Shown one piece after another: positions 1-9,349 of a stretch of DNA of 64,000 nt. This DNA is from Pseudomonadota bacterium. GTDB taxonomy: Bacteria; Pseudomonadota; Gammaproteobacteria; Pseudomonadales; Pseudohongiellaceae. Each line of letters begins with the position of its first letter. Within the stretch, counting starts at the first letter, position 1. Location of the stretch: NCBI GenBank assembly GCA_040386995.1, contig JAZKES010000036.1:18809-82808 (forward strand). Reading direction: 5' to 3'. Below the pieces are notes generated by a model, which saw only the letters and a program-made list of their open reading frames with translations, was not told the DNA's origin and ran no database searches. The translations under genes were made by a program, and so were the position numbers.

Positions 1-717
1 GCGCAACGTTACGCGCGTGTTTTCGAGCTGGGGCAACACACCGCTGACGAGGTTAGTCAGAATTTCGCCGACCCCAAACAGCCCCATCGCAAGCGCTACA
101 AGACTGATGCCGTCCGCGAGTGCGGGAATATCAAACGTGTAACGGAACTGACCGGAATTGATGTCCGTACCAACAAGGCCCAGGATCAGTCCGAGCACTA
201 CCATACACAGTCCTTTCAGCGGCGAACCCACCGCCAGTGTGGACGCGGTAACAAGCGCGAGCAGCATTATCGAAAAATAATCAGCCGCCGAAAAACTCAC
301 TGCAACGTCGGCTAACACCGGTGCAAAGAAAATCATCAACACTATCGCGAATGAGCCGCCAATAAACGACGCAATGGTTGTCACAAACAGTGCCACACCT
401 GCCCTGCCTTGACGTGTCATTTGATAACCATCGAGACAGGTGACGGCGGATGGCGCACTACCAGCCACGTTCAACAGGATGGAAGTAATCGAGCTGCCGT
501 ACTGCCCACCATAAAAAATGCCCGCGAGCATGATGAGCCCCAGCAGTGGATCAAGATGAAAGGTCAATGGCAGGCACAGCGAGATAGTGGTAAGTGCGCC
601 AATGCCAGGCAACACCCCAACAAACGTGCCGAGGGTTACACCGAACAGGCAGATCAACAAAGCTTCCGGCGTCAGCGCCTGTTGAAACCCCATGCCAAGA
701 TTGATTAATGCGTCCAT
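1..717 (-). CDS. tctA: Tripartite tricarboxylate transporter large permease TctA, N-terminal part; the gene continues past the window start
   Basis: The minus-strand frame is open to position 1. It starts at ATG 715-717, 1 nt after the tctB stop. My translation reads MDALINLGMGFQQALTPEALLICLFGVTLGTFVGVLPGIGALTTISL..., which is typical of a TctA N-terminus. It is absent from the ORF track because it is truncated by the window edge. Confidence 0.75.
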   Translation of the reverse strand, partial: MDALINLGMGFQQALTPEALLICLFGVTLGTFVGVLPGIGALTTISLCLPLTFHLDPLLGLIMLAGIFYGGQYGSSITSILLNVAGSAPSAVTCLDGYQMTRQGRAGVALFVTTIASFIGGSFAIVLMIFFAPVLADVAVSFSAADYFSIMLLALVTASTLAVGSPLKGLCMVVLGLILGLVGTDINSGQFRYTFDIPALADGISLVALAMGLFGVGEILTNLVSGVLPQLENTRVTLR

Positions 718-718
718 T

Positions 719-1162
719 TCAGGATCCAAACGCGGGCACAGGAACACCCAGCAAAGTTACAAATACAATGTATGACGCAAGCGTCATGCCCAGGGCAAGT
801 ATCACAGGCGTGCGCCAGCCCTGCTGCGGCAGCGCGAACGAGCTGAATAACAGCTGCACGATACTTGCCGGAAAAAAACCGAATGTATCAATCAACAATG
901 CCCAGGCAAGAATGCCGCCGCCAACCCACAACACTGGACGCAACGGGAAGCTGAGCTCATTTTCCGGGGCTATGCGCAGCTCGCCAGTTGCGAGAACTAA
1001 TGACAGCAACATAATGCAGACACCCAATGCGACGGGCATAAAACCCGGCCCCATCGCGGTAAGCGAGCCAATCTTGTAGCCGCTACCGACGACAATAACG
1101 CTCACGCTAATGAGAAAAAGGAATGCAGCAGGTAATAGTTGCAGGAGCTTAGTGCGAAGCAA
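719..1162 (-). CDS. tctB: Tripartite tricarboxylate transporter small membrane subunit TctB
   Basis: A 147-aa protein with four hydrophobic segments lies immediately upstream of tctA and is coupled to it. Size and topology fit TctB. Confidence 0.65.
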   Translation of the reverse strand: MLRTKLLQLLPAAFLFLISVSVIVVGSGYKIGSLTAMGPGFMPVALGVCIMLLSLVLATGELRIAPENELSFPLRPVLWVGGGILAWALLIDTFGFFPASIVQLLFSSFALPQQGWRTPVILALGMTLASYIVFVTLLGVPVPAFGS

Positions 1163-1229: not shown

Positions 1230-1328
1230 GATGTCCCGTATCACCTTAATGACTCTCATCACGTTGATGGCTCTTATCACGGTGATGATTCTCATCACGT
1301 TCATCACGTTGATGACTCTTATAGCACT
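1230..1328. repeat. Imperfect 18-bp tandem repeat, about 5.5 units, consensus GATGAYTCTCATCACGTT
   Basis: Units read directly: 1230-1247 GATGTCCCGTATCACCTT, 1248-1265 AATGACTCTCATCACGTT, 1266-1283 GATGGCTCTTATCACGGT, 1284-1301 GATGATTCTCATCACGTT, 1302-1310 CATCACGTT (half unit), 1311-1328 GATGACTCTTATAGCACT. The array is open in two plus frames (His-rich DSHHV and hydrophobic ITLMTL) and one minus frame. Confidence 0.85.
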
Positions 1329-1953
1329 AACAGATGCGCAGGTGGGCGTTGCCTGTCGGGCGCATATGGTTTCAGAGAGAGCTAGTTCAACATCCGTAGT
1401 ACTACCTTCGGGCCATCGCCGATCAGGCGCAATGTGCAATGCGCCGCATATTACCTCGCGACAGGTAAAGGCAATGGCTGGACGCAGCATGATGTCTGGA
1501 TTGAAGTTAAGCAAAGATAAACAACGTGAAAACCGGACACCACTAGGTCTGACTAGTAACGTCGGCAATCGAACGACTCCTGGGTGCTGATCTATCAGCT
1601 ATTAATTGTTTTTTGTAATACTTGTGGTGGCGTGAGTATAAGTGCAGCCAGCTAAGTTAGGAAGCGGTGCCTGACATTTCTACCTTTATCCGAACGCTGG
1701 CCCGCGAAAGATTTTTCGCGTACTTCCGTTCTTCATTAATTGGCGCACTGCTCGGTTCGGTTGGACCAAAAATGTGGCTGACAGACTTCCTCTTCAAATT
1801 AGTAATCGCCTGAATATATTGAGGAAATTCTGTGCAAGGGGTGGTTCGCATTCGACAAACCTGATACAAACGATTCTTATTTGATACTTGTGACAGCCCC
1901 GGCCTAACCACAAGGATGAGAACGGATTTCTACATAGCCAGGAGTACCCTATC

Positions 1954-3516
1954 GTGCATACCACTGATTCTTCGCATAATAAAATTGACGCGCTCGACCC
2001 CGTTCCGCGTTCTTCCTGGACTCCTTCCTTCCGCGACGTATGGCGATATGACCTTGCAGCCTCCGTGGTTGTATTTCTCGTTGCGTTACCTTTATGCCTC
2101 GGGATTGCTTTGGCTTCCGGTGCGCCACTGCTTGCGGGCGTGGTGACAGGTGTTATCGGTGGAATAGTGGTTGGCGTCGCTTCTGGTTCGCATCTCATGG
2201 TGAGTGGTCCAGCGGCGGGACTTACCGCGATTGTCCTGAGCGCAATCACGACGCTTGGCGGCTTCGAATTTTTCCTCACTGCAGTTGTGCTTGCAGGACT
2301 TATGCAGATGGCTCTTGGCGTGTTACGCGCCGGTGTGATTGGTTATTATTTTCCGAACTCCGTTATCCGCGGCATGCTTGCGGGCATCGGTTTGATCATC
2401 ATTATTCGCCAGCTGCCCTACGCGATCGGAGCTGATGCATTTACTGCTGAACACGGCATTCTGGCGGCGATCAATGACCCTCATCATGGCGCGATTGGCC
2501 TGAGTGTGTTGGCACTTGCAATCCTGCTTTTGTGGGACATGCCATTCATGAAACATTTCAAGATCATACCTGGCGCACTTGTTGCAGTGCTTGCGTGTAC
2601 CGCAATCAACATGGGGCTGCACCCTGAACTGGCGGTTGATGGTGCACAGCTTGTAGCGTTGCCGGTAATCAGCTCGATTGCGGCCTTTGATGAAGCGATG
2701 GCTTCTCCGATATTCAGCGCTCTGAGCAGTGCTGCGGTATGGACCACCGCGATCACAATCGCGATTATCGCGTCGCTCGAAACACTTCTGAGCCTGGAAG
2801 CTACCGACCGCATGGATCCACTGAAACGTGAAGCGCCGGCCAATCGCGAATTACTCGCCCAGGGCTTTGGCAATACTTTGTGTGGCCTCTTTGGTGGTTT
2901 GCCGATGACCGGCGTAATCGTGCGCAGCTCGGCTAACGTTTATGCCGGTGCACGTACAAAGGCTTCAGCGATATTTCACGGTATCCTGCTACTCATCGCT
3001 GTATTGAGCATTCCCCTGCTGCTCAATTTTATTCCGCTTGCCGTACTTGCCGTAATCCTGATCCACACAGGCTGGAAACTCGCAAATCCCAAACAATTGC
3101 AAATTTTCCTGAAACAGGGCTTCCATCAATGGCTGCCGTTCATCGTCACAATAGTCGCAATTCTGCTAAGTGATTTGTTGATTGGAATTTCCATCGGCTT
3201 GGCCGTCAGTCTGTTTTTCATTCTTCAGGAACACCTGCGCGCGCCGTGTTTCGTTATTGAGCAGGAAGATGAAATAACAACCAAAATCCGCCTGAACGAA
3301 CACCTCACGTTTTTACACAAAGCGAGCCTCAGTTCAGCACTGCAGGAATTCACACCAGGCAGCCGCATAGTGATTGATGGTTCCAGATGTAAACGCATCG
3401 ACCATGATGTGCTCGATGTACTGCGAGAATTTAAAGAGTCTGCCACGAATCGCTTACTGAATATCGACATCAAAGGTATCGACCTGACAGCGTCCTCACT
3501 CGGCACAGGACATTAA
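1954..3516 (+). CDS. SulP-family inorganic anion (sulfate/bicarbonate-type) transporter with C-terminal STAS-like domain
   Basis: A 520-aa polytopic membrane protein. The N-terminus WRYDLAASVVVFLVALPLCLGIALASGAP is typical of SulP, and there is a soluble C-terminal domain of about 90 aa. GTG start at 1954 is preceded by AGGAG at 1940-1944. Confidence 0.8.
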   Translation: MHTTDSSHNKIDALDPVPRSSWTPSFRDVWRYDLAASVVVFLVALPLCLGIALASGAPLLAGVVTGVIGGIVVGVASGSHLMVSGPAAGLTAIVLSAITTLGGFEFFLTAVVLAGLMQMALGVLRAGVIGYYFPNSVIRGMLAGIGLIIIIRQLPYAIGADAFTAEHGILAAINDPHHGAIGLSVLALAILLLWDMPFMKHFKIIPGALVAVLACTAINMGLHPELAVDGAQLVALPVISSIAAFDEAMASPIFSALSSAAVWTTAITIAIIASLETLLSLEATDRMDPLKREAPANRELLAQGFGNTLCGLFGGLPMTGVIVRSSANVYAGARTKASAIFHGILLLIAVLSIPLLLNFIPLAVLAVILIHTGWKLANPKQLQIFLKQGFHQWLPFIVTIVAILLSDLLIGISIGLAVSLFFILQEHLRAPCFVIEQEDEITTKIRLNEHLTFLHKASLSSALQEFTPGSRIVIDGSRCKRIDHDVLDVLREFKESATNRLLNIDIKGIDLTASSLGTGH

Positions 3517-3517
3517 A

Positions 3518-6424
3518 ATGAAGCCGGGGCACAGCACTGAAACCGATGTGCTGGAGCACGCACTACAAACAGCTCGTCATATTTTGCCAGACCAGGGACC
3601 GATCGGTGTTTTCATCCACCACAACACCCTGCATTCATTCCAGCATCTGCGCTTTCACGATGCTGTGCAGGAAGCGGCAAGTCTGACGGGCGCCCGACCT
3701 TATCTCGACCTTCATGAATTCCGCGCTGCATTTCACGCGGGCAGAATAGAAGAAGCTGACCTCGCTGCAGCCATACGTTCCCATCTCGGCGAAAGTGGGG
3801 ATGAAGCAATTTTGGCAACTCTTTCGCGTTTTCAGCTCTGGCACCATCTGATGCTGGAAGAAACCGCAATGACCAATACGGTCGAGCTGGACTGGCAGTT
3901 TCGTTCAGCAAGTCCGGCCGAGCGCAAACTCATTCAGGCGGCACACAAACGCGCCGATGACTTGCCTGCCGCACCGTATGAGAAGCCCCATTACAATCGA
4001 CACGCCGAAGTGCTGCGTGTCCTCAACGCGGCCGACAGTGATGTTGTTGTGCACGATGAACTGATCCGGTGGTGCGCGGCCTTCCTCGATCAAGGCCAGG
4101 CGCTGACCCCTATGCCGGGGCGCGACCTGGGATTTCTACAGGCAGTAGCCCGGATGTATGCAAAGGGCGCCGGTTCACCACGGGGATGTCCCGGAGTAGC
4201 CGAAGATTTTCAGTCAATAGCACGTAACCACACTCCTCCCCACACCGTAATCCGCGAATGCCTGCACGACCTCGGCATCGAAGAACAGCAACTCACTTCC
4301 TTTATAAGCGCCACTGCTGCAGCCCTGAATGGCTGGGCAGGAATGTTCGCGCGGCTGGAACATCACGAAGCTGAGAACCATGCACATACACCGGCCACGT
4401 TGGCAGAGTTCATGGCGGTCAGGCTTGTGCTGGAACGGCGTGCACTTGGCCACATTTGCAGTCAGGCCAGGTTGCCCTTGCAATGGCCAGCATTGCTCGC
4501 ACAGGTACCCGACATGAGCGTCTGCCAGCGCAGCGGCAACGCACTTATCCTTTACAAGATTGCGCAAGGCGCAGGCCTGGATGCTGCAGGCCTCGAAGCA
4601 ATTGATGAAACGCAGCTCAATACTCTGTGGCAAGCAGTAGCAACGTGTACTCCACTCAAGCGCCGTGAACTGTGGATGGATGCATACGAAAGCTGGTACT
4701 ACCGCCAGATTCTGAACGGCATAGCCGCACTGCGCCCGAAACGTCTTATACCCGACACTCAGCAACGACCCGCCGCACAATATATGTTCTGCATGGATGA
4801 ACGCGAAGAATCAATTCGCCGCGCCGTAGAAGAACACGGTCCTGACTATCAGACTTTTGGACTGGCTGGTTTTTTTGGCGTAGCAATCGACTATCAGGGT
4901 TTGTACGACCACAAGCCTGCAGCCTATTGTCCAGTCGTGGTGACGCCTGCGCATGAAGTACACGAAACACCGCTATACACCCATCGTGACTGGCACGAAC
5001 TGCGCAATTCTCTGCGCAATGTGTGGCGGTATGCACGACGTCGCACACATTTCGAATCACGCACGCTAAGCGGCGGCGCGGGCCTGTCTTTGTTGCTCGG
5101 ACCGGTTTACGCAGTTATGGCAGCAATCCGCATTTTGCTGCCACGCGGATCAGTCACTACCCATGAACGTGTAACCGAACGAGTGTCGCCAAAACCCGCT
5201 ACCCGTTTGCTTGCCGTGCGCGATACCAATTCCACCATTCGTACTGAACGCGGCAAGTTGCTGGGCTTCACACTTGAGGAAGCGACGGAACGTGTTACCA
5301 ACGTGCTGCGCAGCATTGGCCTGGTCGAAAACTTCGCCCCGATCGTAATCGCGTTGGGGCACGGTTCCACGAGTCTCAACAATCCGCATGAATCTGCCCA
5401 TGACTGCGGAGCTTGTGGCGGTAGACGCGGCGGTGCCAACGCACGTTTGTTTGCGGGGCTCGCGAACGAACCGGAAGTCAGAATCGCGCTGCGCTCAAAA
5501 GGCATCACAATTCCCGCTGATACCTGGTTTATCGGTGGTTTGCACGACACCGCTGATGACAACATTTCCTATTCTGATCTCGCAGATTTGCCTCACGCAT
5601 TGGTCGATGCGTTTGAACAAGCCGACCACGTGCTCGATCTTTCCCGTCGCATGAGTGCTGCTGAACGTTGCCGCCGCTTTCACAATGCAAGCCTGCCCAT
5701 CACACCTGACGCAGGGTTACACCATGTCGAAACCCGAGCGCGCCAGCTTGCGCAACCACGTCCTGAATACGGTCATTGCACAAATGCAGTAGCAGTCGTT
5801 GGCCGGCGTTCGCTTACGCGCGGCTTACACCTGGATCGCCGTGCATTCCTGATCAGTTACGATCCGACTATCGATCCCGAACACCAGTTGCTCGAACGTA
5901 TTCTGGCGGCAGCCGGCCCCGTCGGCGCCGGTATCAGCCTCGAATATTATTTCTCTGCTGTCGATAACGAACGCTACGGCTGCGGCACTAAACTCCCGCA
6001 TAACGTCATTGGATTGCTTGGCATCATGAATGGTCACAAGAGTGATCTTCGTACCGGTTTACCGTTGCAGATGGTCGAGCTGCATGAACCGATGAGGCTC
6101 TTGATCATCGCCGAATCCACTCCAGAAGCATTGCTGGGTATTGCAGGGCGGCAGGCGGAAGTGCGTGAGCTTGTGGTCAACCGCTGGGTACAACTGGCGT
6201 GTGTGGATCCTGACACAGGCGCGATGTATATGTTCACGGACAAGGGTTTTGTGCCTTACGTTCCGGATAAACTCGATATTCCGCTGTTCGATAATTCAGC
6301 GGCCAGACATGGCCTGCATCGTCAGCATTTAACTCCCGCCTTGGTCGCCGCAGCCCTTCGTCGCAGCGCGCCCCACGCTGAGCAAACCGTACACAGCATG
6401 GAGCATCGGCCGCGTTATGCCTGA
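3518..6424 (+). CDS. dabA: DabA / DUF2309 (YbcC, MpsB-like) inorganic-carbon pump subunit
   Basis: 968 aa. N-terminal GPIGVFIHHNTLHSF, the FCMDEREE motif (Cys425, Asp427) and GHGSTSLNNPHESAHDCGACGG (His615, Cys630) are hallmarks of DUF2309/DabA. Its ATG lies 1 nt after the SulP stop. Confidence 0.85.
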   Translation: MKPGHSTETDVLEHALQTARHILPDQGPIGVFIHHNTLHSFQHLRFHDAVQEAASLTGARPYLDLHEFRAAFHAGRIEEADLAAAIRSHLGESGDEAILATLSRFQLWHHLMLEETAMTNTVELDWQFRSASPAERKLIQAAHKRADDLPAAPYEKPHYNRHAEVLRVLNAADSDVVVHDELIRWCAAFLDQGQALTPMPGRDLGFLQAVARMYAKGAGSPRGCPGVAEDFQSIARNHTPPHTVIRECLHDLGIEEQQLTSFISATAAALNGWAGMFARLEHHEAENHAHTPATLAEFMAVRLVLERRALGHICSQARLPLQWPALLAQVPDMSVCQRSGNALILYKIAQGAGLDAAGLEAIDETQLNTLWQAVATCTPLKRRELWMDAYESWYYRQILNGIAALRPKRLIPDTQQRPAAQYMFCMDEREESIRRAVEEHGPDYQTFGLAGFFGVAIDYQGLYDHKPAAYCPVVVTPAHEVHETPLYTHRDWHELRNSLRNVWRYARRRTHFESRTLSGGAGLSLLLGPVYAVMAAIRILLPRGSVTTHERVTERVSPKPATRLLAVRDTNSTIRTERGKLLGFTLEEATERVTNVLRSIGLVENFAPIVIALGHGSTSLNNPHESAHDCGACGGRRGGANARLFAGLANEPEVRIALRSKGITIPADTWFIGGLHDTADDNISYSDLADLPHALVDAFEQADHVLDLSRRMSAAERCRRFHNASLPITPDAGLHHVETRARQLAQPRPEYGHCTNAVAVVGRRSLTRGLHLDRRAFLISYDPTIDPEHQLLERILAAAGPVGAGISLEYYFSAVDNERYGCGTKLPHNVIGLLGIMNGHKSDLRTGLPLQMVELHEPMRLLIIAESTPEALLGIAGRQAEVRELVVNRWVQLACVDPDTGAMYMFTDKGFVPYVPDKLDIPLFDNSAARHGLHRQHLTPALVAAALRRSAPHAEQTVHSMEHRPRYA

Positions 6425-7715
6425 TATTTTGCAATGGGGACTGATATTAAGTATTGCAGCCCCGCTCACATGTTCCCTGATCATCGGTTTATCGATCCTT
6501 GTCCGCCGTGAATGGCTCTCTGAAAACGCAATTTACAAGCTGTGTAACACTGGGCTTTTGTTGGCATTTTCGGGAAGCCTGATCGTGTTGTTTTCGCACG
6601 GTTTCAACAATACTGCGATCGAAGTGGATGCTGGTCACTGGATCAGTATCGGGGATTACGAAATTCCAGCCTTGCTCTACGTTGATAGCCTTGCGCTGGC
6701 GTTTTCCCTACTGGGTTCTGCGTTGACTTTACTCGTTGCGCGTTTCTCGCAAACGTATTTGCATAAAGAAGCGGGCTTTGCGCGCTTTTTTCTGTTGTTG
6801 GGCGTATTTGCAACTGGCACCCAGCTCATCGCGTTTGCTGGCGCACTTGACCTGTTTTTTGCGGGCTGGGAAGCGATCGGTATTTGTTCTGCACTCTTCA
6901 TCGGCTACTTCTACGAACGCGAAGAACCCGTGCGTTCTGCAATCCGCGCATTTACCACTTACCGAATTTGCGATGCAGGTTTTCTGGTTGCTATCGTGAG
7001 CATTCATGAGCTGCTCGGATCCACCAGCATTTCAGGCTTGATGGCGGCCGAAAATCTCGGCGGAGTAACTGTCACCCTGATTGCAGTCATGCTAATGATC
7101 GCAGCGTTTGGTAAATCCGCGCAGCTGCCATTTTCGTCCTGGCTGCCGCGTGCGATGGAAGGGCCTACACCGTCGAGTGCGTTGTTCTATGGCTCGGTTT
7201 CAATACATGTCGGCCTTTTTCTGCTGTTGCGTATCTCGCCCATTCTCGAAGCGGCCCCGGTTGCACAGGCACTCGGTATAGTCGTGGGACTTTCAACCGC
7301 ATTTTACGCGGCAGCCATTGCGCGCACTCACACGGATGCCAAAGGCGCTTTGGCGCATGCCACACTTGCGCAAACTGGTTTGATACTCGCAGAAATTTCC
7401 CTGGGTTTTACGACGTTTGCACTTATACATCTCGTTTGCCATGCGCTGTTGCGCGTGTGGCAATATCTACGTGCTCCCAACACTATGGCGGATGCCCATG
7501 AATTTGGCCATGAACCGCATCACGCACCGAGCCTGCTCGCAAAAATATTCCCACTGACGTCCAACTGGTTGTACGCGCAGGCACTGCATCGCTTCCGGCT
7601 GGACGACCGCATGGACAGTGCAGTGGCTCCTTTCTTATGGTTGGCGGAAAGCCTGGCGCGCTGGGACGAACAATTACGCCGTAGCTTAAGCCGGCGCCAG
7701 GATAATAATTCATGA
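6417..7715 (+). CDS. dabB: NuoL/MrpA-like proton-conducting membrane subunit (DabB-like)
   Basis: 432 aa. GKSAQLPFSSWLPRAMEGPTPSSALFYGS is the canonical antiporter-like (Proton_antipo_M) motif, with Lys at 7113-7115. A later segment reads AHATLAQTG. It overlaps the dabA stop by 8 nt (ATGCCTGA). Confidence 0.8.
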   Translation: MPDILQWGLILSIAAPLTCSLIIGLSILVRREWLSENAIYKLCNTGLLLAFSGSLIVLFSHGFNNTAIEVDAGHWISIGDYEIPALLYVDSLALAFSLLGSALTLLVARFSQTYLHKEAGFARFFLLLGVFATGTQLIAFAGALDLFFAGWEAIGICSALFIGYFYEREEPVRSAIRAFTTYRICDAGFLVAIVSIHELLGSTSISGLMAAENLGGVTVTLIAVMLMIAAFGKSAQLPFSSWLPRAMEGPTPSSALFYGSVSIHVGLFLLLRISPILEAAPVAQALGIVVGLSTAFYAAAIARTHTDAKGALAHATLAQTGLILAEISLGFTTFALIHLVCHALLRVWQYLRAPNTMADAHEFGHEPHHAPSLLAKIFPLTSNWLYAQALHRFRLDDRMDSAVAPFLWLAESLARWDEQLRRSLSRRQDNNS

Positions 7716-8827
7716 CTGGACACACCGGTTTTATTCTTTCGTTCGTTGCTTTCGCGGCTGTATTGCTCGGCGCTCCATTACTTGCCACAAACACGCGTGA
7801 GCGTTCGGCGTGGATCTCCGCTGTCTGTGTCCTGGGCATCCTGACCTTTGCACTGATTACCAGCAGCGGCGTGTTCGCATATCTGGCACTGGCACTTGTT
7901 ACCGCGATGCACGCTGCGTCCGCATGGCACAGAGCACCTACTGGAGCGCTTTATCTGGTTGCGGCTTCAGTGACGCTAATTGCCGCCGCAGCCGCCATTG
8001 CATTCGACTCGGATAACCTGGCATTCGGACTTTCGTGCGTGGCACTGGCGTTGCGCGCAGGTCTTGCACCGTTTCATGCCGGCGTGGCAGAGATGTGTAT
8101 GAAACAACGTGAGCTGCAGCTACAGCAAAGCAGCTCGCTACTGATCCTGGTCCTCGCGCATCTTTATTACATCGATCATTTGCCAATTGCCTATGAAATG
8201 GCGCCCTTCCTCGTGATCTGGGGTGCAGTGCTGACCTTGTTGTATGCACTGACTGCACTTGCGCAGCGTGAACTCGGCGGCCTGCTGCGCTCTTCCACTC
8301 TCATGCATGCGGGTATGTTGTATGCGGCCGTTGGTGCCGGTGCACGCGGCCACTACGGCGCAGCGCTACTCGTAACCGTTACACTCGTGTTCGCGCTGGG
8401 TGGGCTGTCCTTGACCATTTCGGCGCTGGAAGCACGCCTTGGCAAAATCTCTCTGCTGGGTCCTGCAGTGGGTCGCGCACGTGCATTTCCGCGTCTCGCA
8501 GCGGCCTTTGCTTTTTTTGGTGCTGCAGGAGTTGGCATGCCGGGTACCGCAGGTTTTATTGCTGATGACGTGTTGTTGCATGCGCTGTGGGAGGAAAGTC
8601 CTGCCGGTGCAGTGATCATTATTTTTGGCAGTGCGATTCTGGCTGTCGCAACACTCAGCGTACTGGCCAAAACTTTCTTCGGTCCCGCATTACGCGTCCA
8701 TACACCAGATCTGCTGATGCAGGAACGCAGCGTTGTTGTTGCGCTCGTCCTGCTTCTCCTTGGGCTTGGCTTGGTCCCTCAGTTACTCGTAGGTGTAGCC
8801 GAACTCGTGCTCGGCAATACAATCTAG
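7712..8827 (+). CDS. Second antiporter-like (NuoM/NuoN/MrpD-like) membrane subunit, degenerate
   Basis: A 371-aa polytopic protein. LRAGLAPFHAGVAEM aligns by eye with the K..G..PFH.W.P.. motif, SSTLMHAGML with the AYSS..H.G segment, and MPGTAGFIADDV with the TM12 lPgt.GF motif. There is a 4-nt ATGA overlap with the preceding gene. Confidence 0.6.
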   Translation: MTGHTGFILSFVAFAAVLLGAPLLATNTRERSAWISAVCVLGILTFALITSSGVFAYLALALVTAMHAASAWHRAPTGALYLVAASVTLIAAAAAIAFDSDNLAFGLSCVALALRAGLAPFHAGVAEMCMKQRELQLQQSSSLLILVLAHLYYIDHLPIAYEMAPFLVIWGAVLTLLYALTALAQRELGGLLRSSTLMHAGMLYAAVGAGARGHYGAALLVTVTLVFALGGLSLTISALEARLGKISLLGPAVGRARAFPRLAAAFAFFGAAGVGMPGTAGFIADDVLLHALWEESPAGAVIIIFGSAILAVATLSVLAKTFFGPALRVHTPDLLMQERSVVVALVLLLLGLGLVPQLLVGVAELVLGNTI

Positions 8828-8947
8828 ATAGAATTTTCCACGGTGCAGCTCGGTAAATCGGTATGGGGCTAATTTCCACTCAGCCGATTGTTGTTCCTCA
8901 AACCAGTATTACAATCAGCGATAAAAAACCGGCATCGAGGTATCGTT

Positions 8948-9349
8948 ATGCAAGTGCGCGATTTCATGACATGCAAGGTTGTGTGTGTTGAGCTCGACGA
9001 TACGCTGAACGTGGTCAAAGAGATCTTCGACAATACGCGCTTTCACCACCTGCTCGTCGTTGATAATCACAAACTACGCGGAGTGATTTCTGATCGGGAC
9101 TTGCTCAAGGCCATCAGTCCGAATATTGGTCTAGCGTCAGAAACTGAACGCGACACTGCCACTCTGAAAAAACACGCCCATCAGATCATGAGCCGCAACA
9201 TCGTGACACTCCAACCCAATGCGAGTCTCGAGGATGTAGTGGATGTGTTTACCTGCTGCCGGATTTCCTGTGTGCCGATCATTGATCAACACGGAAATGT
9301 CGAGGGAATTGTTTCCTGGCGGGATCTGCTGCAGTTTGTGCGCGAATGA
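8948..9349 (+). CDS. CBS-pair domain protein (stand-alone)
   Basis: Two CBS repeats are visible (MTCKVVCVELDDTLNVVKEIF...GVISDRDLL and IMSRNIVTLQPNASLEDVVDVF...GIVSWRDLL). I prefer the ATG at 8948, preceded by GAGG at 8937-8940, over the longer ORF starting at 8888. Confidence 0.75.
   Translation: MQVRDFMTCKVVCVELDDTLNVVKEIFDNTRFHHLLVVDNHKLRGVISDRDLLKAISPNIGLASETERDTATLKKHAHQIMSRNIVTLQPNASLEDVVDVFTCCRISCVPIIDQHGNVEGIVSWRDLLQFVRE

What the first reader, a model, noticed from the sequence alone, without database searches (positions are those of the whole stretch)
1954..9349. SulP + DabA + NuoL-like DabB + extra antiporter-like subunit + CBS protein: an expanded DAB-type inorganic-carbon pump locus
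Seen in sequence: four plus-strand genes are packed with essentially no spacers. The SulP stop and dabA ATG are 1 nt apart. dabA and dabB overlap by 8 nt. dabB and the next gene share an ATGA overlap. A CBS-pair gene follows 120 nt later, and the next gene is convergent. Established knowledge: DUF2309 (DabA/MpsB) paired with one NuoL-like PF00361 protein (DabB/MpsA) forms the two-component energy-coupled CO2/bicarbonate pump known from Halothiobacillus neapolitanus and Staphylococcus aureus. Some SulP transporters carry bicarbonate (the BicA type). Inference: the described system has two components. Here the operon adds a second antiporter-like membrane protein. It also physically couples a SulP channel and a nucleotide-sensing-type CBS protein to the pump. 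That suggests a larger, possibly regulated complex, for example a vectorial carbonic anhydrase with two proton-channel modules feeding or working with a bicarbonate carrier. The window contains no RuBisCO or carboxysome genes, so the context looks heterotrophic.
Basis: partly seen in the sequence, partly recalled or inferred. Interest (0 to 1): 0.75.

Follow-up and report, generated by a model that had tools for sequence, protein, structure and literature searches.

The report
Three-subunit CO2 pump variant with SulP
This is a conserved four-gene cassette for a previously undescribed layout of the bacterial DAB carbon-dioxide pump: the usual membrane subunit is cut short, a second complex-I-like membrane subunit sits beside it, and a bicarbonate-type SulP transporter gene always comes first; the neighbouring CBS gene is not a conserved part.

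Summary
SulP (1954-3516), DabA (3518-6424), a NuoL-like DabB (6417-7715) and a 371-aa PF00361 protein (7712-8827) are packed with a 1-nt spacer and 8-nt and 4-nt overlaps. A CBS-pair gene follows 120 nt later.

Three-subunit DABs are already known: DAB1 has DabC, a degenerate NuoM-like remnant. This locus is neither DAB1 nor DAB2.
- DabB is truncated after TM11 (432 aa against about 560). It keeps the NuoL TM5 Glu that the DabB1 sequences examined here, and DabB2 as reported, have lost.
- The third subunit is a near-complete NuoM fold (pLDDT 95, TM-score 0.86). It has an invariant Asp-Asp at the TM12 position, a TM10 His and a TM7 Arg. DabC has lost these.
- DabA keeps its zinc site but lacks the conserved finger-motif Glu of DabA1 and DabA2.

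SulP-DabA-shortDabB-X recurs in MAGs labelled as four phyla (DabB 24/24, DabA 17/17, SulP 9/9, plus one more locus). Natural DabB-X fusions exist. CBS follows in only 2 of 25 loci, both close relatives.

Most likely this is a third DAB architecture whose proton path is shared between two antiporter-like subunits. Verdict: new variant of a known kind; interest 0.6.

The parts
1569..1953 (+). Intergenic region upstream of sulP. It is the likely promoter region of the cassette and is divergent from a minus-strand membrane-protein gene.
   Evidence: The ORF layout is. One sigma-70-like match lies at 1793-1820, which is not above chance. AGGAG lies 8 nt before the GTG at 1954. The promoter role is inferred.
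1954..3516 (+). SulP/SLC26-family anion transporter (520 aa) with a C-terminal STAS-like region. It is a candidate bicarbonate carrier.
   Evidence: PF00916 at 1.5e-53 and STAS_2 at 8.8e-5. The best solved relative is the BicA transmembrane domain, 6ki1, at E 2e-28. It scores 127 bits against the NCBIfam BicA equivalog cut-off of 880, so it is not a BicA orthologue. A SulP gene lies directly upstream of dabA in 9 of 9 visible family loci, plus L214.
3518..6424 (+). DabA (968 aa), the beta-carbonic-anhydrase-like cytoplasmic subunit. It has a hydrophobic membrane-inserting hairpin at about residues 517-543.
   Evidence: PF10070 at 3e-234. It matches DabA2 (9rd0_A) at 3.7e-72. The CxDxR motif (CMDER), the His-x14-Cys spacing and the E-x3-D-C coupling motif are conserved. 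The finger-motif Glu (DabA2 E444) is not conserved in this family. Identity is 30-34% to DabA1 and 29% to DabA2.
6417..7715 (+). Short DabB (432 aa): NuoL-like TM1-11 followed by a conserved, roughly 85-residue non-membrane tail. TM12-15 are absent.
   Evidence: PF00662 and PF00361. It aligns only to NuoL 6-355 and DabB2 85-354. The last hydrophobic segment ends at residue 347. The AF2 model has pLDDT 82.9 and matches NuoL at TMq 0.75 over about 350-385 columns. In 20 of 20 family members the NuoL-numbered positions read E144, R175, D178, K229, H334, H338 and K342->Arg. The tail residues D359, H361, R392, R394 and D400 are invariant.
7712..8827 (+). Third subunit 'X371' (371 aa): a NuoM-class antiporter-like protein with 12 TM helices, equivalent to NuoM TM3-14. 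It is a long counterpart of DabC that retains charged residues.
   Evidence: PF00361 at 31.8 bits against a gathering score of 21.5. Residues 160-369 align to E. coli NuoM 283-495 at E 1e-12. The AF2 model has pLDDT 95.3 and pTM 0.92. Foldseek top hits are NuoM/ND4/NdhD at TMq 0.84-0.86. H150, H199, D285 and D286 are invariant and R115 is at least 90% conserved across 65 homologues. The mapping to NuoM is K234->R115, H322->H199 and E407->D285. hhalign against the DabC profile gives probability 95.9%. Natural fusions to short DabB exist: P0131 and P0140.
8948..9349 (+). Stand-alone CBS-pair protein (133 aa). It is a lineage-specific neighbour and probably not part of the conserved system.
   Evidence: Two PF00571 domains at 4.7e-29. 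It is present after X371 only in contigs carrying the 86%-identical P0002 (L084, L085 and one contig without DNA). It is absent from the other 23 loci with visible downstream DNA.

Best explanation
The cassette encodes a third architectural class of the DAB/DAC energy-coupled CO2-hydrating complex (a vectorial carbonic anhydrase), together with a SulP-type anion, probably bicarbonate, transporter.

Shown:
- DabA keeps the zinc-site motifs and the E-x3-D-C motif. In the DAB1 structure that motif contacts cytosolic helices of DabB.
- DabB is a NuoL-like protein cut off after TM11. It has a conserved cytosolic tail and keeps both NuoL gating ion pairs, including the TM5 Glu.
- The next gene encodes a NuoM-fold protein with an invariant Asp-Asp at the TM12 break, a TM10 His and a TM7 Arg.
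- This protein is always encoded directly after short DabB and is sometimes fused to it.

Inferred:
- The NuoM-like subunit sits beside DabB where NuoM sits beside NuoL, and where DabC sits in DAB1.
- Its TM12 Asp-Asp then faces the DabB TM5 Glu / TM7 Lys pair, as NuoM E407 faces NuoL E144/K229 in complex I.
- It supplies the periplasm-side part of the proton path that short DabB (no TM12-15) and this DabA (no finger Glu) cannot provide.
- Protons entering by this composite path drive conformational changes. These pass through the DabB TM11 His-His-Arg and the cytosolic tail to the buried DabA active site. CO2 is then hydrated in one direction only and bicarbonate accumulates in the cytoplasm.
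- The co-transcribed SulP adds a second route for inorganic carbon (bicarbonate).
- The CBS protein is a local neighbour, at most a lineage-specific regulator.
For: - Domain identities.
- Zinc and coupling motifs.
- DabB truncation and residue table, 20 short DabB against 3 DabB1 against NuoL.
- X371 fold and invariant polar residues.
- Three-way co-variation. Short DabB keeps the TM5 Glu while the three DabB1 sequences have F or H there and DabB2 has Ile151 (paper). X371 keeps the TM12 Asp-Asp while DabC has Phe-Ala there. This DabA clade lacks the finger Glu that DabA1 and DabA2 keep.
- Adjacency in the survey: DabB 24/24, DabA 17/17, SulP 9/9, plus L214.
- Natural DabB-X fusions P0131 (768 aa) and P0140 (674 aa).
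- Precedent: DabC is essential and occupies the NuoM position in the DAB1 cryo-EM structure (bioRxiv 10.64898/2026.05.01.722082). DAB2 activity depends on the proton-motive force and on proton-path residues (10.64898/2026.03.13.711513).
- SulP: its closest solved relative is BicA. Some proteobacterial SulPs rescue carbonic-anhydrase-free E. coli (PMC12628692).
Against: - No structure of the complex could be computed, so the position of X371 relative to DabB is inferred by analogy with complex I and DAB1.
- X371 lacks the TM5 Glu. It has Leu at the MAFFT-aligned NuoM K265 and H348 positions, and Arg rather than Lys at the TM7 position. It may therefore not conduct protons by itself.
- The DAB1 authors conclude that their third subunit is structural. 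They also dispute that the DabA finger takes part in proton transfer.
- The DabC profile matches generic NuoM-like proteins better than it matches X371. X371 is therefore not shown to be the direct ancestor or orthologue of DabC.
- No activity, expression or substrate data exist for this clade.
- The SulP is far below the BicA equivalog score.
Confidence: 0.6

Rival explanations
1. The complex is the same, but the 371-aa subunit is purely structural or allosteric, as proposed for DabC. All proton translocation runs through DabB (and DabA). The conserved polar residues of X371 serve folding or subunit contacts.
For: The DAB1 preprint finds DabC essential, but without polar-axis residues or ordered waters. 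X371 lacks the TM5 Glu, the mid-TM8 Lys and the TM11 His of NuoM, and has Arg at the TM7 Lys position. The family member P0140 carries only the C-terminal half of X, which is about DabC size.
Against: D285/D286 and H199 are invariant in 65 homologues at exactly the NuoM E407 and H322 positions. Even the shortened P0140 keeps the Asp-Asp. Short DabB has no TM12-15, and this DabA has no conserved finger Glu. It is therefore hard to see where the periplasmic half of a path would come from. Retention of the DabB TM5 Glu co-varies with retention of the X371 TM12 acid.
Confidence: 0.25
2. The cassette is built around SulP rather than around carbon acquisition. DAB makes a steep cytoplasmic bicarbonate pool, and SulP uses it as the counter-ion to import another anion (sulfate, a dicarboxylate or similar), or SulP exports bicarbonate for pH control. 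The 'pump' would then energise anion exchange.
For: SulP is the first gene and is invariably present in the loci examined. A beta-carbonic anhydrase gene sits just upstream of SulP in L002. From general knowledge, many SLC26/SulP proteins are anion:bicarbonate exchangers, and SulP-carbonic anhydrase fusions are known. The DauA equivalog scores as well as the SulP subfamily model. The window has a housekeeping context with no RuBisCO.
Against: The closest solved relative is the bicarbonate importer BicA. DAB systems in heterotrophs are already explained as a bicarbonate supply for carboxylases (Desmarais preprint discussion). There are no data on substrate or direction.
Confidence: 0.12
3. The two PF00361 genes are fragments of one broken or mis-assembled gene, or the 371-aa ORF is a decaying duplicate, so the 'third subunit' is an artefact.
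For: The lengths add up: 432 + 371 aa is about the same as DabB1 + DabC (565 + 253). Fused versions exist.
Against: At least 120 X371 clusters and at least 120 short-DabB clusters have uniform lengths of 363-391 aa and 420-486 aa. The split layout recurs in four phyla. X371 is collinear with PF00361 and NuoM TM3-14, not with NuoL TM12-16. Model confidence is very high. The start and stop codons are translationally coupled (ATGA).
Confidence: 0.02

Closest known systems
DAB1 (DabA1-DabB1-DabC) of Halothiobacillus neapolitanus, Thermocrinis albus and Nitrobacter hamburgensis
   Same: Three subunits: a PF10070 carbonic-anhydrase-like subunit, a NuoL-like subunit and a third membrane subunit derived from the NuoM fold. 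hhalign of X371 against DabC gives probability 95.9% over X371 residues 118-355. The DabA E-x3-D-C motif and polar DabB cytosolic elements are conserved. Fusions of DabB with the third subunit occur in both systems.
   Different: DabB1 is full length (559-565 aa, with TM12-15) and has lost the TM5 Glu. Here DabB is 432 aa, ends after TM11 and keeps the Glu. DabC is 241-270 aa, has no Pfam hit and has hydrophobic residues at the TM12 position. X371 is 371 aa, passes the PF00361 threshold and has an invariant Asp-Asp there. The DAB1 gene order is dabB-dabC-dabA-PII beside carboxysome genes. Here the order is sulP-dabA-dabB-X, with no P-II gene and no carboxysome genes nearby. DabA identity is only 30-34%.
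DAB2 (DabA2-DabB2; PDB 9rd0) and the related MpsAB / Tcr_0853-0854 DAC
   Same: PF10070 plus a NuoL-like PF00361 partner. The zinc ligands and the TM7 Lys / TM11 His-His relay are conserved. DabA has a hydrophobic hairpin that enters the membrane.
   Different: DAB2 has two subunits only. DabB2 is 551 aa with 15 TM helices. The essential finger Glu (E444), said to replace NuoL K399/D400, is not conserved here. DabB2 has Ile at the TM5 Glu position.
Complex I NuoL/NuoM pair and the cyanobacterial NDH-1MS CO2-uptake module (NdhF3/NdhD3/CupA)
   Same: A NuoL-class subunit next to a NuoM-class subunit. The TM5 Glu of the L-type and the TM12 acid of the M-type are both retained. The X371 model matches NdhD3 (6tjv_D) at TMq 0.84 and NuoM at 0.86, and short DabB matches NuoL/NdhF. 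In NDH-1MS such a pair supports a vectorial CO2-hydrating subunit (general knowledge and the introduction read).
   Different: There is no redox module and no NuoN/K/J/A/H genes. Both subunits are truncated: L-type TM1-11 and M-type TM3-14. The carbonic-anhydrase subunit is DabA, not CupA.
BicA (the SulP-type Na+/bicarbonate symporter of cyanobacteria) and the DIC-transporting SulPs of sulfur-oxidising Gammaproteobacteria
   Same: SulP fold with a STAS-like tail. BicA is the closest solved relative. The gene is encoded with other inorganic-carbon uptake genes.
   Different: It scores 127 bits against the 880-bit BicA equivalog cut-off. The substrate is untested. Some proteobacterial SulPs fail to transport DIC.

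Membership tests
DAB/DAC energy-coupled CO2 hydration complexes (general) | A PF10070 (DabA) protein | tested here: met
   PF10070 at 3.2e-234, covering profile positions 2-747 of 747.
DAB/DAC energy-coupled CO2 hydration complexes (general) | Beta-carbonic-anhydrase-type zinc ligands (CxDxR and His...Cys) | tested here: met
   The motifs CMDER and GHGSTSLNNPHESAHDC are conserved across the clade and align with DabA1 and DabA2.
DAB/DAC energy-coupled CO2 hydration complexes (general) | An adjacent NuoL-like PF00361 membrane subunit that retains proton-relay residues | tested here: met
   PF00662 and PF00361. E144, K229, H334 and H338 (NuoL numbering) are present in 20 of 20 sequences, and K342 is Arg.
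DAB/DAC energy-coupled CO2 hydration complexes (general) | CCCP-sensitive inorganic-carbon accumulation, or rescue of carbonic-anhydrase-free E. coli | not testable with these tools
   This needs an experiment.
DAB2 subtype | Two-gene operon with a full-length DabB of about 550 aa and 15 TM helices | tested here: not met
   DabB is 432 aa and its last TM segment ends at residue 347. A third PF00361 gene follows.
DAB2 subtype | Conserved Glu in the DabA finger-like motif (E444) | tested here: not met
   The position is Gly in the HMMER alignment. Under the alternative alignment it is E, G, R or Q across the clade.
DAB1 subtype | A small DabC (about 250 aa, no Pfam domain, hydrophobic at the NuoM proton-path positions) | tested here: not met
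   The third subunit is 371 aa, passes the PF00361 gathering score and has invariant D285/D286 and H199.
DAB1 subtype | A third subunit homologous to the part of NuoM that lies next to NuoL | tested here: met
   hhalign of A1 against the DabC profile gives probability 95.9% and E 5.7e-9 over X371 118-355. However, DabC matches generic NuoM-like proteins at least as well.
DAB1 subtype | A full-length DabB1 (about 560 aa) and the dabB-dabC-dabA-PII order near carboxysome genes | tested here: not met
   L083, L212 and L213 show that layout. The window has sulP-dabA-dabB-X, with no P-II gene and housekeeping flanks.
PF00361 antiporter-like subunit, NuoM/ND4/MrpD class (for the 371-aa protein) | Pfam gathering score reached and the NuoM fold | tested here: met
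   31.8 bits against 21.5. Foldseek TMq is 0.86 to 8qby_M. hhalign probability to NuoM-like proteins is 100%.
PF00361 antiporter-like subunit, NuoM/ND4/MrpD class (for the 371-aa protein) | The full set of 14 TM helices with TM5 Glu, TM7 Lys, TM8 Lys and TM12 Glu/Lys | tested here: not met
   It has 12 helices, equivalent to TM3-14. The TM5 Glu is absent, TM7 is Arg, the aligned TM8 position is Leu, and TM12 is Asp-Asp.
BicA-type bicarbonate transporter (for SulP) | The NCBIfam BicA equivalog score | tested here: not met
   127 bits against a cut-off of 880. It is a SulP family member only (PF00916).
CBS-pair regulator as part of this system | Conserved co-occurrence with the cassette | tested here: not met
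   It is present in 2 of 25 loci with visible downstream DNA, and both are 86%-identical relatives.

The most novel reading that the evidence does not exclude
This clade is a 'missing-link' DAB in which the proton path is physically split between two complex-I-type subunits. The NuoM-like subunit supplies the TM12 acidic half-channel. In DAB2 that role is attributed to the DabA finger Glu, and in DAB1 it has been lost from DabC. If so, the clade records how a NuoL/NuoM pair was reduced to DabB/DabC. It also offers a natural experiment on a current disagreement between the two 2026 structures: whether the DabA finger or elbow takes part in proton transfer. In addition, the invariably co-encoded SulP may work as a functional unit with the pump, either as dual CO2 and bicarbonate uptake or as bicarbonate-driven anion exchange, in largely heterotrophic soil and freshwater phyla.
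Probability: 0.3. Interest if true: 0.75.

Novelty: new variant of a known kind. Interest (0 to 1): 0.6.

Why it matters
DAB pumps are a current target for engineering carbon-concentrating mechanisms, and their coupling mechanism is unsettled. Two 2026 cryo-EM studies disagree on whether the membrane-inserted DabA motif carries protons.

This clade naturally lacks three things: the finger Glu, DabB TM12-15, and the loss of the TM5 Glu seen in the DabB1 and DabB2 sequences compared here. It retains a NuoM-like partner with a TM12 Asp-Asp. That gives specific residues whose mutation would locate the proton path. It also suggests an evolutionary route from a complex-I or Mrp-type L/M pair to DabB/DabC.

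The clade extends three-subunit DABs beyond carboxysome-bearing autotrophs. It occurs in Gemmatimonadota, Acidobacteriota, Planctomycetota-labelled MAGs and uncultured Gammaproteobacteria, always together with a SulP gene. This raises the question of what energised bicarbonate accumulation is for in those organisms.

Tried and rejected
1. I tried to recover T. albus DabB-DabC from the DAB1 preprint's Supplementary Table 5. The machine-read DNA is too corrupted: 2224 of 2317 nt, and even DabB gave no tblastn hit. Real DAB1 genes came instead from the Nitrobacter hamburgensis plasmid in PLSDB.

2. The single genome-contig scan with the X371 alignment was largely wasted. Only 4 family loci were returned. 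A hand-made pattern (ADDxLLHAxW) on metagenome contigs gave 20 true family loci out of 120.

3. I tested the idea that X371 equals DabB TM12-15 plus DabC with a shifted gene boundary, because the lengths sum to about the same. It is rejected. X371 is collinear with PF00361/NuoM TM3-14, and the first part includes a TM7-type broken helix.

4. I tested the idea that X371 is specifically the closest relative of DabC. It is not supported. The DabC profile scores higher against generic NuoM-like proteins (106 against 69).

5. Exact-sequence look-ups for the window's own protein found nothing on record.

6. The Schmid et al. 2021 paper on one-, two- and three-subunit DACs (J Bacteriol) could not be read, so prior description of this layout there cannot be excluded. 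Literature searches for DabA/DUF2309 together with SulP or DabC found no description of this layout. One search was wasted on a loose term setting.

7. Scans of the locus for Rfam families, tandem repeats, promoters and terminators gave nothing above chance.

8. I did not model a DabB-X fusion. The structure tool returns no coordinates, so the interface could not have been read.
Full report
**1. The observation**

- SulP: 1954-3516.
- DabA: 3518-6424.
- A NuoL-like protein: 6417-7715.
- A 371-aa protein: 7712-8827.
- A CBS-pair gene whose likely start is ATG 8948, 120 nt after the previous stop.

I read the junctions directly from the sequence. TAA is followed by one base and then ATG at 3514-3520. 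There is an 8-nt overlap at 6417-6424 and an ATGA at 7712-7715.

Pfam confirms each assignment. SulP matches PF00916 and, weakly, STAS. DabA matches PF10070 at 3e-234. The 432-aa protein matches PF00662 and PF00361. The 371-aa protein matches PF00361 at 31.8 bits against a gathering score of 21.5. The CBS protein has two PF00571 domains.

The next gene is a convergent PAS-GGDEF-EAL protein. The rest of the window, up to about 55 kb, is housekeeping: purL, guaAB, xseA, ppk, der, bamB, hisS, ispG, rlmN, hscA, iscS, secDF, tgt, queA, mdh and pyk. There are no RuBisCO or carboxysome families. The window matches an NCBI MAG labelled Pseudomonadota.

**2. What was already known**

That is outdated.

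H. neapolitanus DAB1 has three genes: hneap_0907, hneap_0908 and hneap_0909. A 2026 preprint reports a 2.13 Å cryo-EM structure of the T. albus DabA-DabB-DabC heterotrimer. According to that preprint, DabC has these properties:
- It has no Pfam domain.
- It aligns structurally with the NuoM helices next to NuoL.
- It has hydrophobic residues where NuoM has proton-path residues.
- It is essential and was judged to be structural.

The DAB2 structure (PDB 9rd0) shows a 15-TM DabB2. Its TM12-14 are displaced by a DabA 'finger'. The conserved finger Glu444 is proposed to replace NuoL K399/D400. DabB2 has Ile at the NuoL TM5 Glu position. The DAB1 authors dispute that the finger carries protons.

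**3. The third gene product**

The 371-aa protein belongs to a well-populated family of uniform length.
- There are at least 120 clusters at 90% identity, 354-411 aa long.
- There are about 25 clusters at 50% identity, 363-391 aa long.

An AlphaFold model built on 65 homologues is very confident: pLDDT 95.3 and pTM 0.92. Its best PDB matches are all NuoM/ND4/NdhD chains at TM-score 0.84-0.86. They include NdhD3 of the cyanobacterial CO2-uptake complex NDH-1MS. The model has 12 helices that correspond to NuoM TM3-14, including both broken helices (TM7 and TM12).

Several polar residues are invariant or nearly so: R115, H122, H150, H199, R242, D285, D286, H290, D333, E338 and R339.

Alignment to E. 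coli NuoM, NuoN and NuoL gives the following mapping:

| NuoM residue | Helix | X371 |
|---|---|---|
| K234 | TM7 | R115 |
| H322 | TM10 | H199 |
| E407 (NuoL K399/D400) | TM12 | D285/D286 |
| E144 | TM5 | no counterpart |
| K265 | TM8 | Leu |
| H348 | TM11 | Leu |

So this is a nearly complete but partly degenerate antiporter-like subunit.

**4. Relation to DabC**

I obtained genuine DAB1 genes from the Nitrobacter hamburgensis plasmid (L083). They are dabB1 (565 aa), dabC (253 aa), dabA1 (1037 aa) and a P-II gene. Two more DAB1 loci lie beside carboxysome genes: L212 and L213.

Pairwise BLAST of X371 against DabC is not significant. A profile of 39 DabC homologues aligns to the X371 profile with probability 95.9% and E 5.7e-9, over X371 118-355 against DabC 13-245. 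DabC therefore corresponds to TM7b-TM14 of X371.

In that alignment DabC has Phe-Ala where X371 has Asp-Asp. It also lacks the TM10 His.

A control tempers this result. The DabC profile matches a generic NuoM-like profile even better, with score 106 against 69. Both proteins are NuoM derivatives, but a specific X371-DabC sister relationship is not shown.

**5. DabB and DabA differ too**

DabB here aligns to NuoL, DabB1 and DabB2 only through TM11.
- Its last hydrophobic segment ends at residue 347.
- A conserved non-membrane tail follows. D359, H361, R392, R394 and D400 are invariant.
- The AlphaFold model (pLDDT 82.9) matches NuoL over about 350-385 columns. It ends in an extended TM11 and a long C-terminal helix of low to medium confidence.
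- At least 120 homologous clusters are all 420-486 aa long.

The table compares 20 short DabBs, three DabB1s and NuoL, using NuoL numbering.

| NuoL position | Short DabB (20 of 20) | DabB1 (3 sequences) |
|---|---|---|
| E144 (TM5) | Glu | Phe or His |
| R175 / D178 | Arg / Asp | Arg / Asp |
| K229 (TM7) | Lys | Lys or Arg |
| H254 | Tyr | His |
| H334 / H338 (TM11) | His / His | His / His |
| K342 (TM11) | Arg | Lys |
| K399 (TM12) | no TM12 | Lys or Gln |

DabA keeps the CxDxR and His...Cys zinc motifs. It also keeps the E-x3-D-C motif which, in T. albus, contacts the cytosolic helices of DabB.

The conserved Glu of the finger or elbow motif (TVE or FVE in DabA1 and DabA2) is not conserved in this clade. 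Instead there is an SRTLxGGA insertion. Under either possible alignment the position is Gly, or E/G/R/Q.

This DabA is 30-34% identical to DabA1 and 29% to DabA2. DabA1 and DabA2 are 30% identical to each other. It is therefore about equally distant from both.

**6. Conservation of the arrangement**

I surveyed 31 loci that carry an X371 homologue. They came from exact-protein look-ups, the genome scan and a hand-made pattern scan of metagenomes. Counts are for loci where the relevant position is visible.

| Neighbour | Present / visible |
|---|---|
| Short DabB directly upstream | 24 / 24 |
| DabA | 17 / 17 |
| SulP | 9 / 9 |
| CBS downstream | 2 / 25 |

Both CBS-positive loci are 86%-identical relatives. 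Elsewhere MarR, a sigma factor or unrelated genes follow.

One further locus, reached through DabB, is from a Phycisphaerae-labelled MAG. It has the same four genes.

The record labels span Gammaproteobacteria, Gemmatimonadota, Acidobacteriota (Vicinamibacterales) and Planctomycetota.

Two natural fusions link short DabB to X in one polypeptide:
- P0131 (768 aa) is DabB 5-424 plus X 449-764.
- P0140 (674 aa) is DabB plus only the C-terminal half of X, and it still carries the Asp-Asp.

**7. How it most likely works**

Shown: three features co-vary across the DAB types.

| Feature | This clade | DAB1 | DAB2 |
|---|---|---|---|
| DabB TM5 Glu | kept | lost | lost |
| DabB TM12-15 | absent | present | present |
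| Partner subunit | NuoM-like, TM12 Asp-Asp | DabC, TM12 acid lost | none |
| DabA finger Glu | absent | present | present |

Established knowledge of complex I: the TM12 acid or base of one antiporter-like subunit faces the TM5 Glu / TM7 Lys pair of the next. This forms the lateral proton-transfer axis.

Inference:
- X371 occupies the NuoM position next to DabB, as DabC does in DAB1.
- Its Asp-Asp links to DabB E152/K233.
- The two truncated subunits together provide one composite proton path.
- That path drives the conformational gating of the buried DabA active site, through the TM11 His-His-Arg and the cytosolic tail.
- The result is one-way CO2 hydration.

I give this about 0.6 overall. 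That the three proteins form a DAB-type complex is much more certain than that X371 conducts protons.

The main rival is that X371 is purely structural, like DabC.

SulP is most simply a second route for inorganic carbon (bicarbonate). Its closest solved relative is BicA. Some proteobacterial SulPs rescue carbonic-anhydrase-free E. coli and others do not. An alternative cannot be excluded: that the bicarbonate made by DAB drives anion exchange through SulP.

The CBS protein is not part of the conserved unit. DAB1 operons carry a P-II gene in the corresponding place. A nucleotide-sensing regulator there would have a precedent, but the evidence in this clade is only local adjacency.

**8. Novelty and limits**

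Within the literature I could search, I found no description of a layout with a short DabB, a PF00361 third subunit and SulP.

Schmid et al. 2021 studied one-, two- and three-subunit DACs. I could not read that paper, so prior mention there is possible.

No multimer model, activity data or expression data were available.

I classify the finding as a new variant of a known kind. Its interest to specialists is moderate to high because it bears directly on the open question of DAB proton coupling and on how these pumps evolved.

Noticed in passing
window 719-1162 (-) and 1-700 (-): A 147-aa minus-strand membrane ORF that by eye looks like a TctB-type small subunit. Another membrane ORF runs off the window start. 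This explains the strongly A-rich plus strand (AT skew 0.31) and leaves a divergent intergenic region of about 390 nt before sulP.
   Followed up: no
window 1240-1301: An 18-nt unit repeated 3.4 times in tandem (79% matches) inside the upstream region. Its significance is unknown.
   Followed up: no
L213 1-10171: A metagenome contig carries a DAB2-type pair (dabB 531 aa, dabA 821 aa) immediately upstream of a DAB1 set (dabB1 559 aa, dabC 246 aa, dabA1 1036 aa, P-II). These lie next to a LysR regulator and csoS2, so both classical DAB types sit in tandem beside a carboxysome locus.
   Followed up: partly
L012 19-4232: An Acidobacteria MAG has DabA, a short DabB (475 aa) and a third subunit of about 393 aa. 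The third subunit is more NuoM-like than X371: it has Arg-Lys at the TM7 position and Glu-Asp at TM12. This suggests a graded series of third subunits: NuoM-like, then X371, then the P0140 half-size form, then DabC.
   Followed up: partly
alignment A2 (DabC homologues, from L083 4727-5488): The DabC family is detectably NuoM/PF00361-like by profile-profile comparison (hhalign probability 98%). The DAB1 preprint describes it as belonging to no Pfam family. One member (P0318) even has a precomputed PF00361 hit.
   Followed up: yes
L002 1429-2136: In the Gemmatimonadetes genome GCA_016712265.1 a conventional beta-carbonic anhydrase gene (PF00484) sits directly upstream of the sulP-dabA-dabB-X cassette.
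   Followed up: no
P0141 (326 aa, from the representatives library): A protein whose N-terminal half looks like a nucleotidyl-transferase and whose C-terminal half is the C-terminal half of an X371-like protein. It is probably an assembly or gene-calling chimera.
   Followed up: no
window 7551-7691 (DabB residues 379-425): The short DabB model ends in a single helix of about 47 residues with conserved Arg and Asp residues (R392, R394, D400). It could act as a lateral clamp like the NuoL HL helix, or as the DabA contact. Model confidence there is only low to medium.
   Followed up: partly
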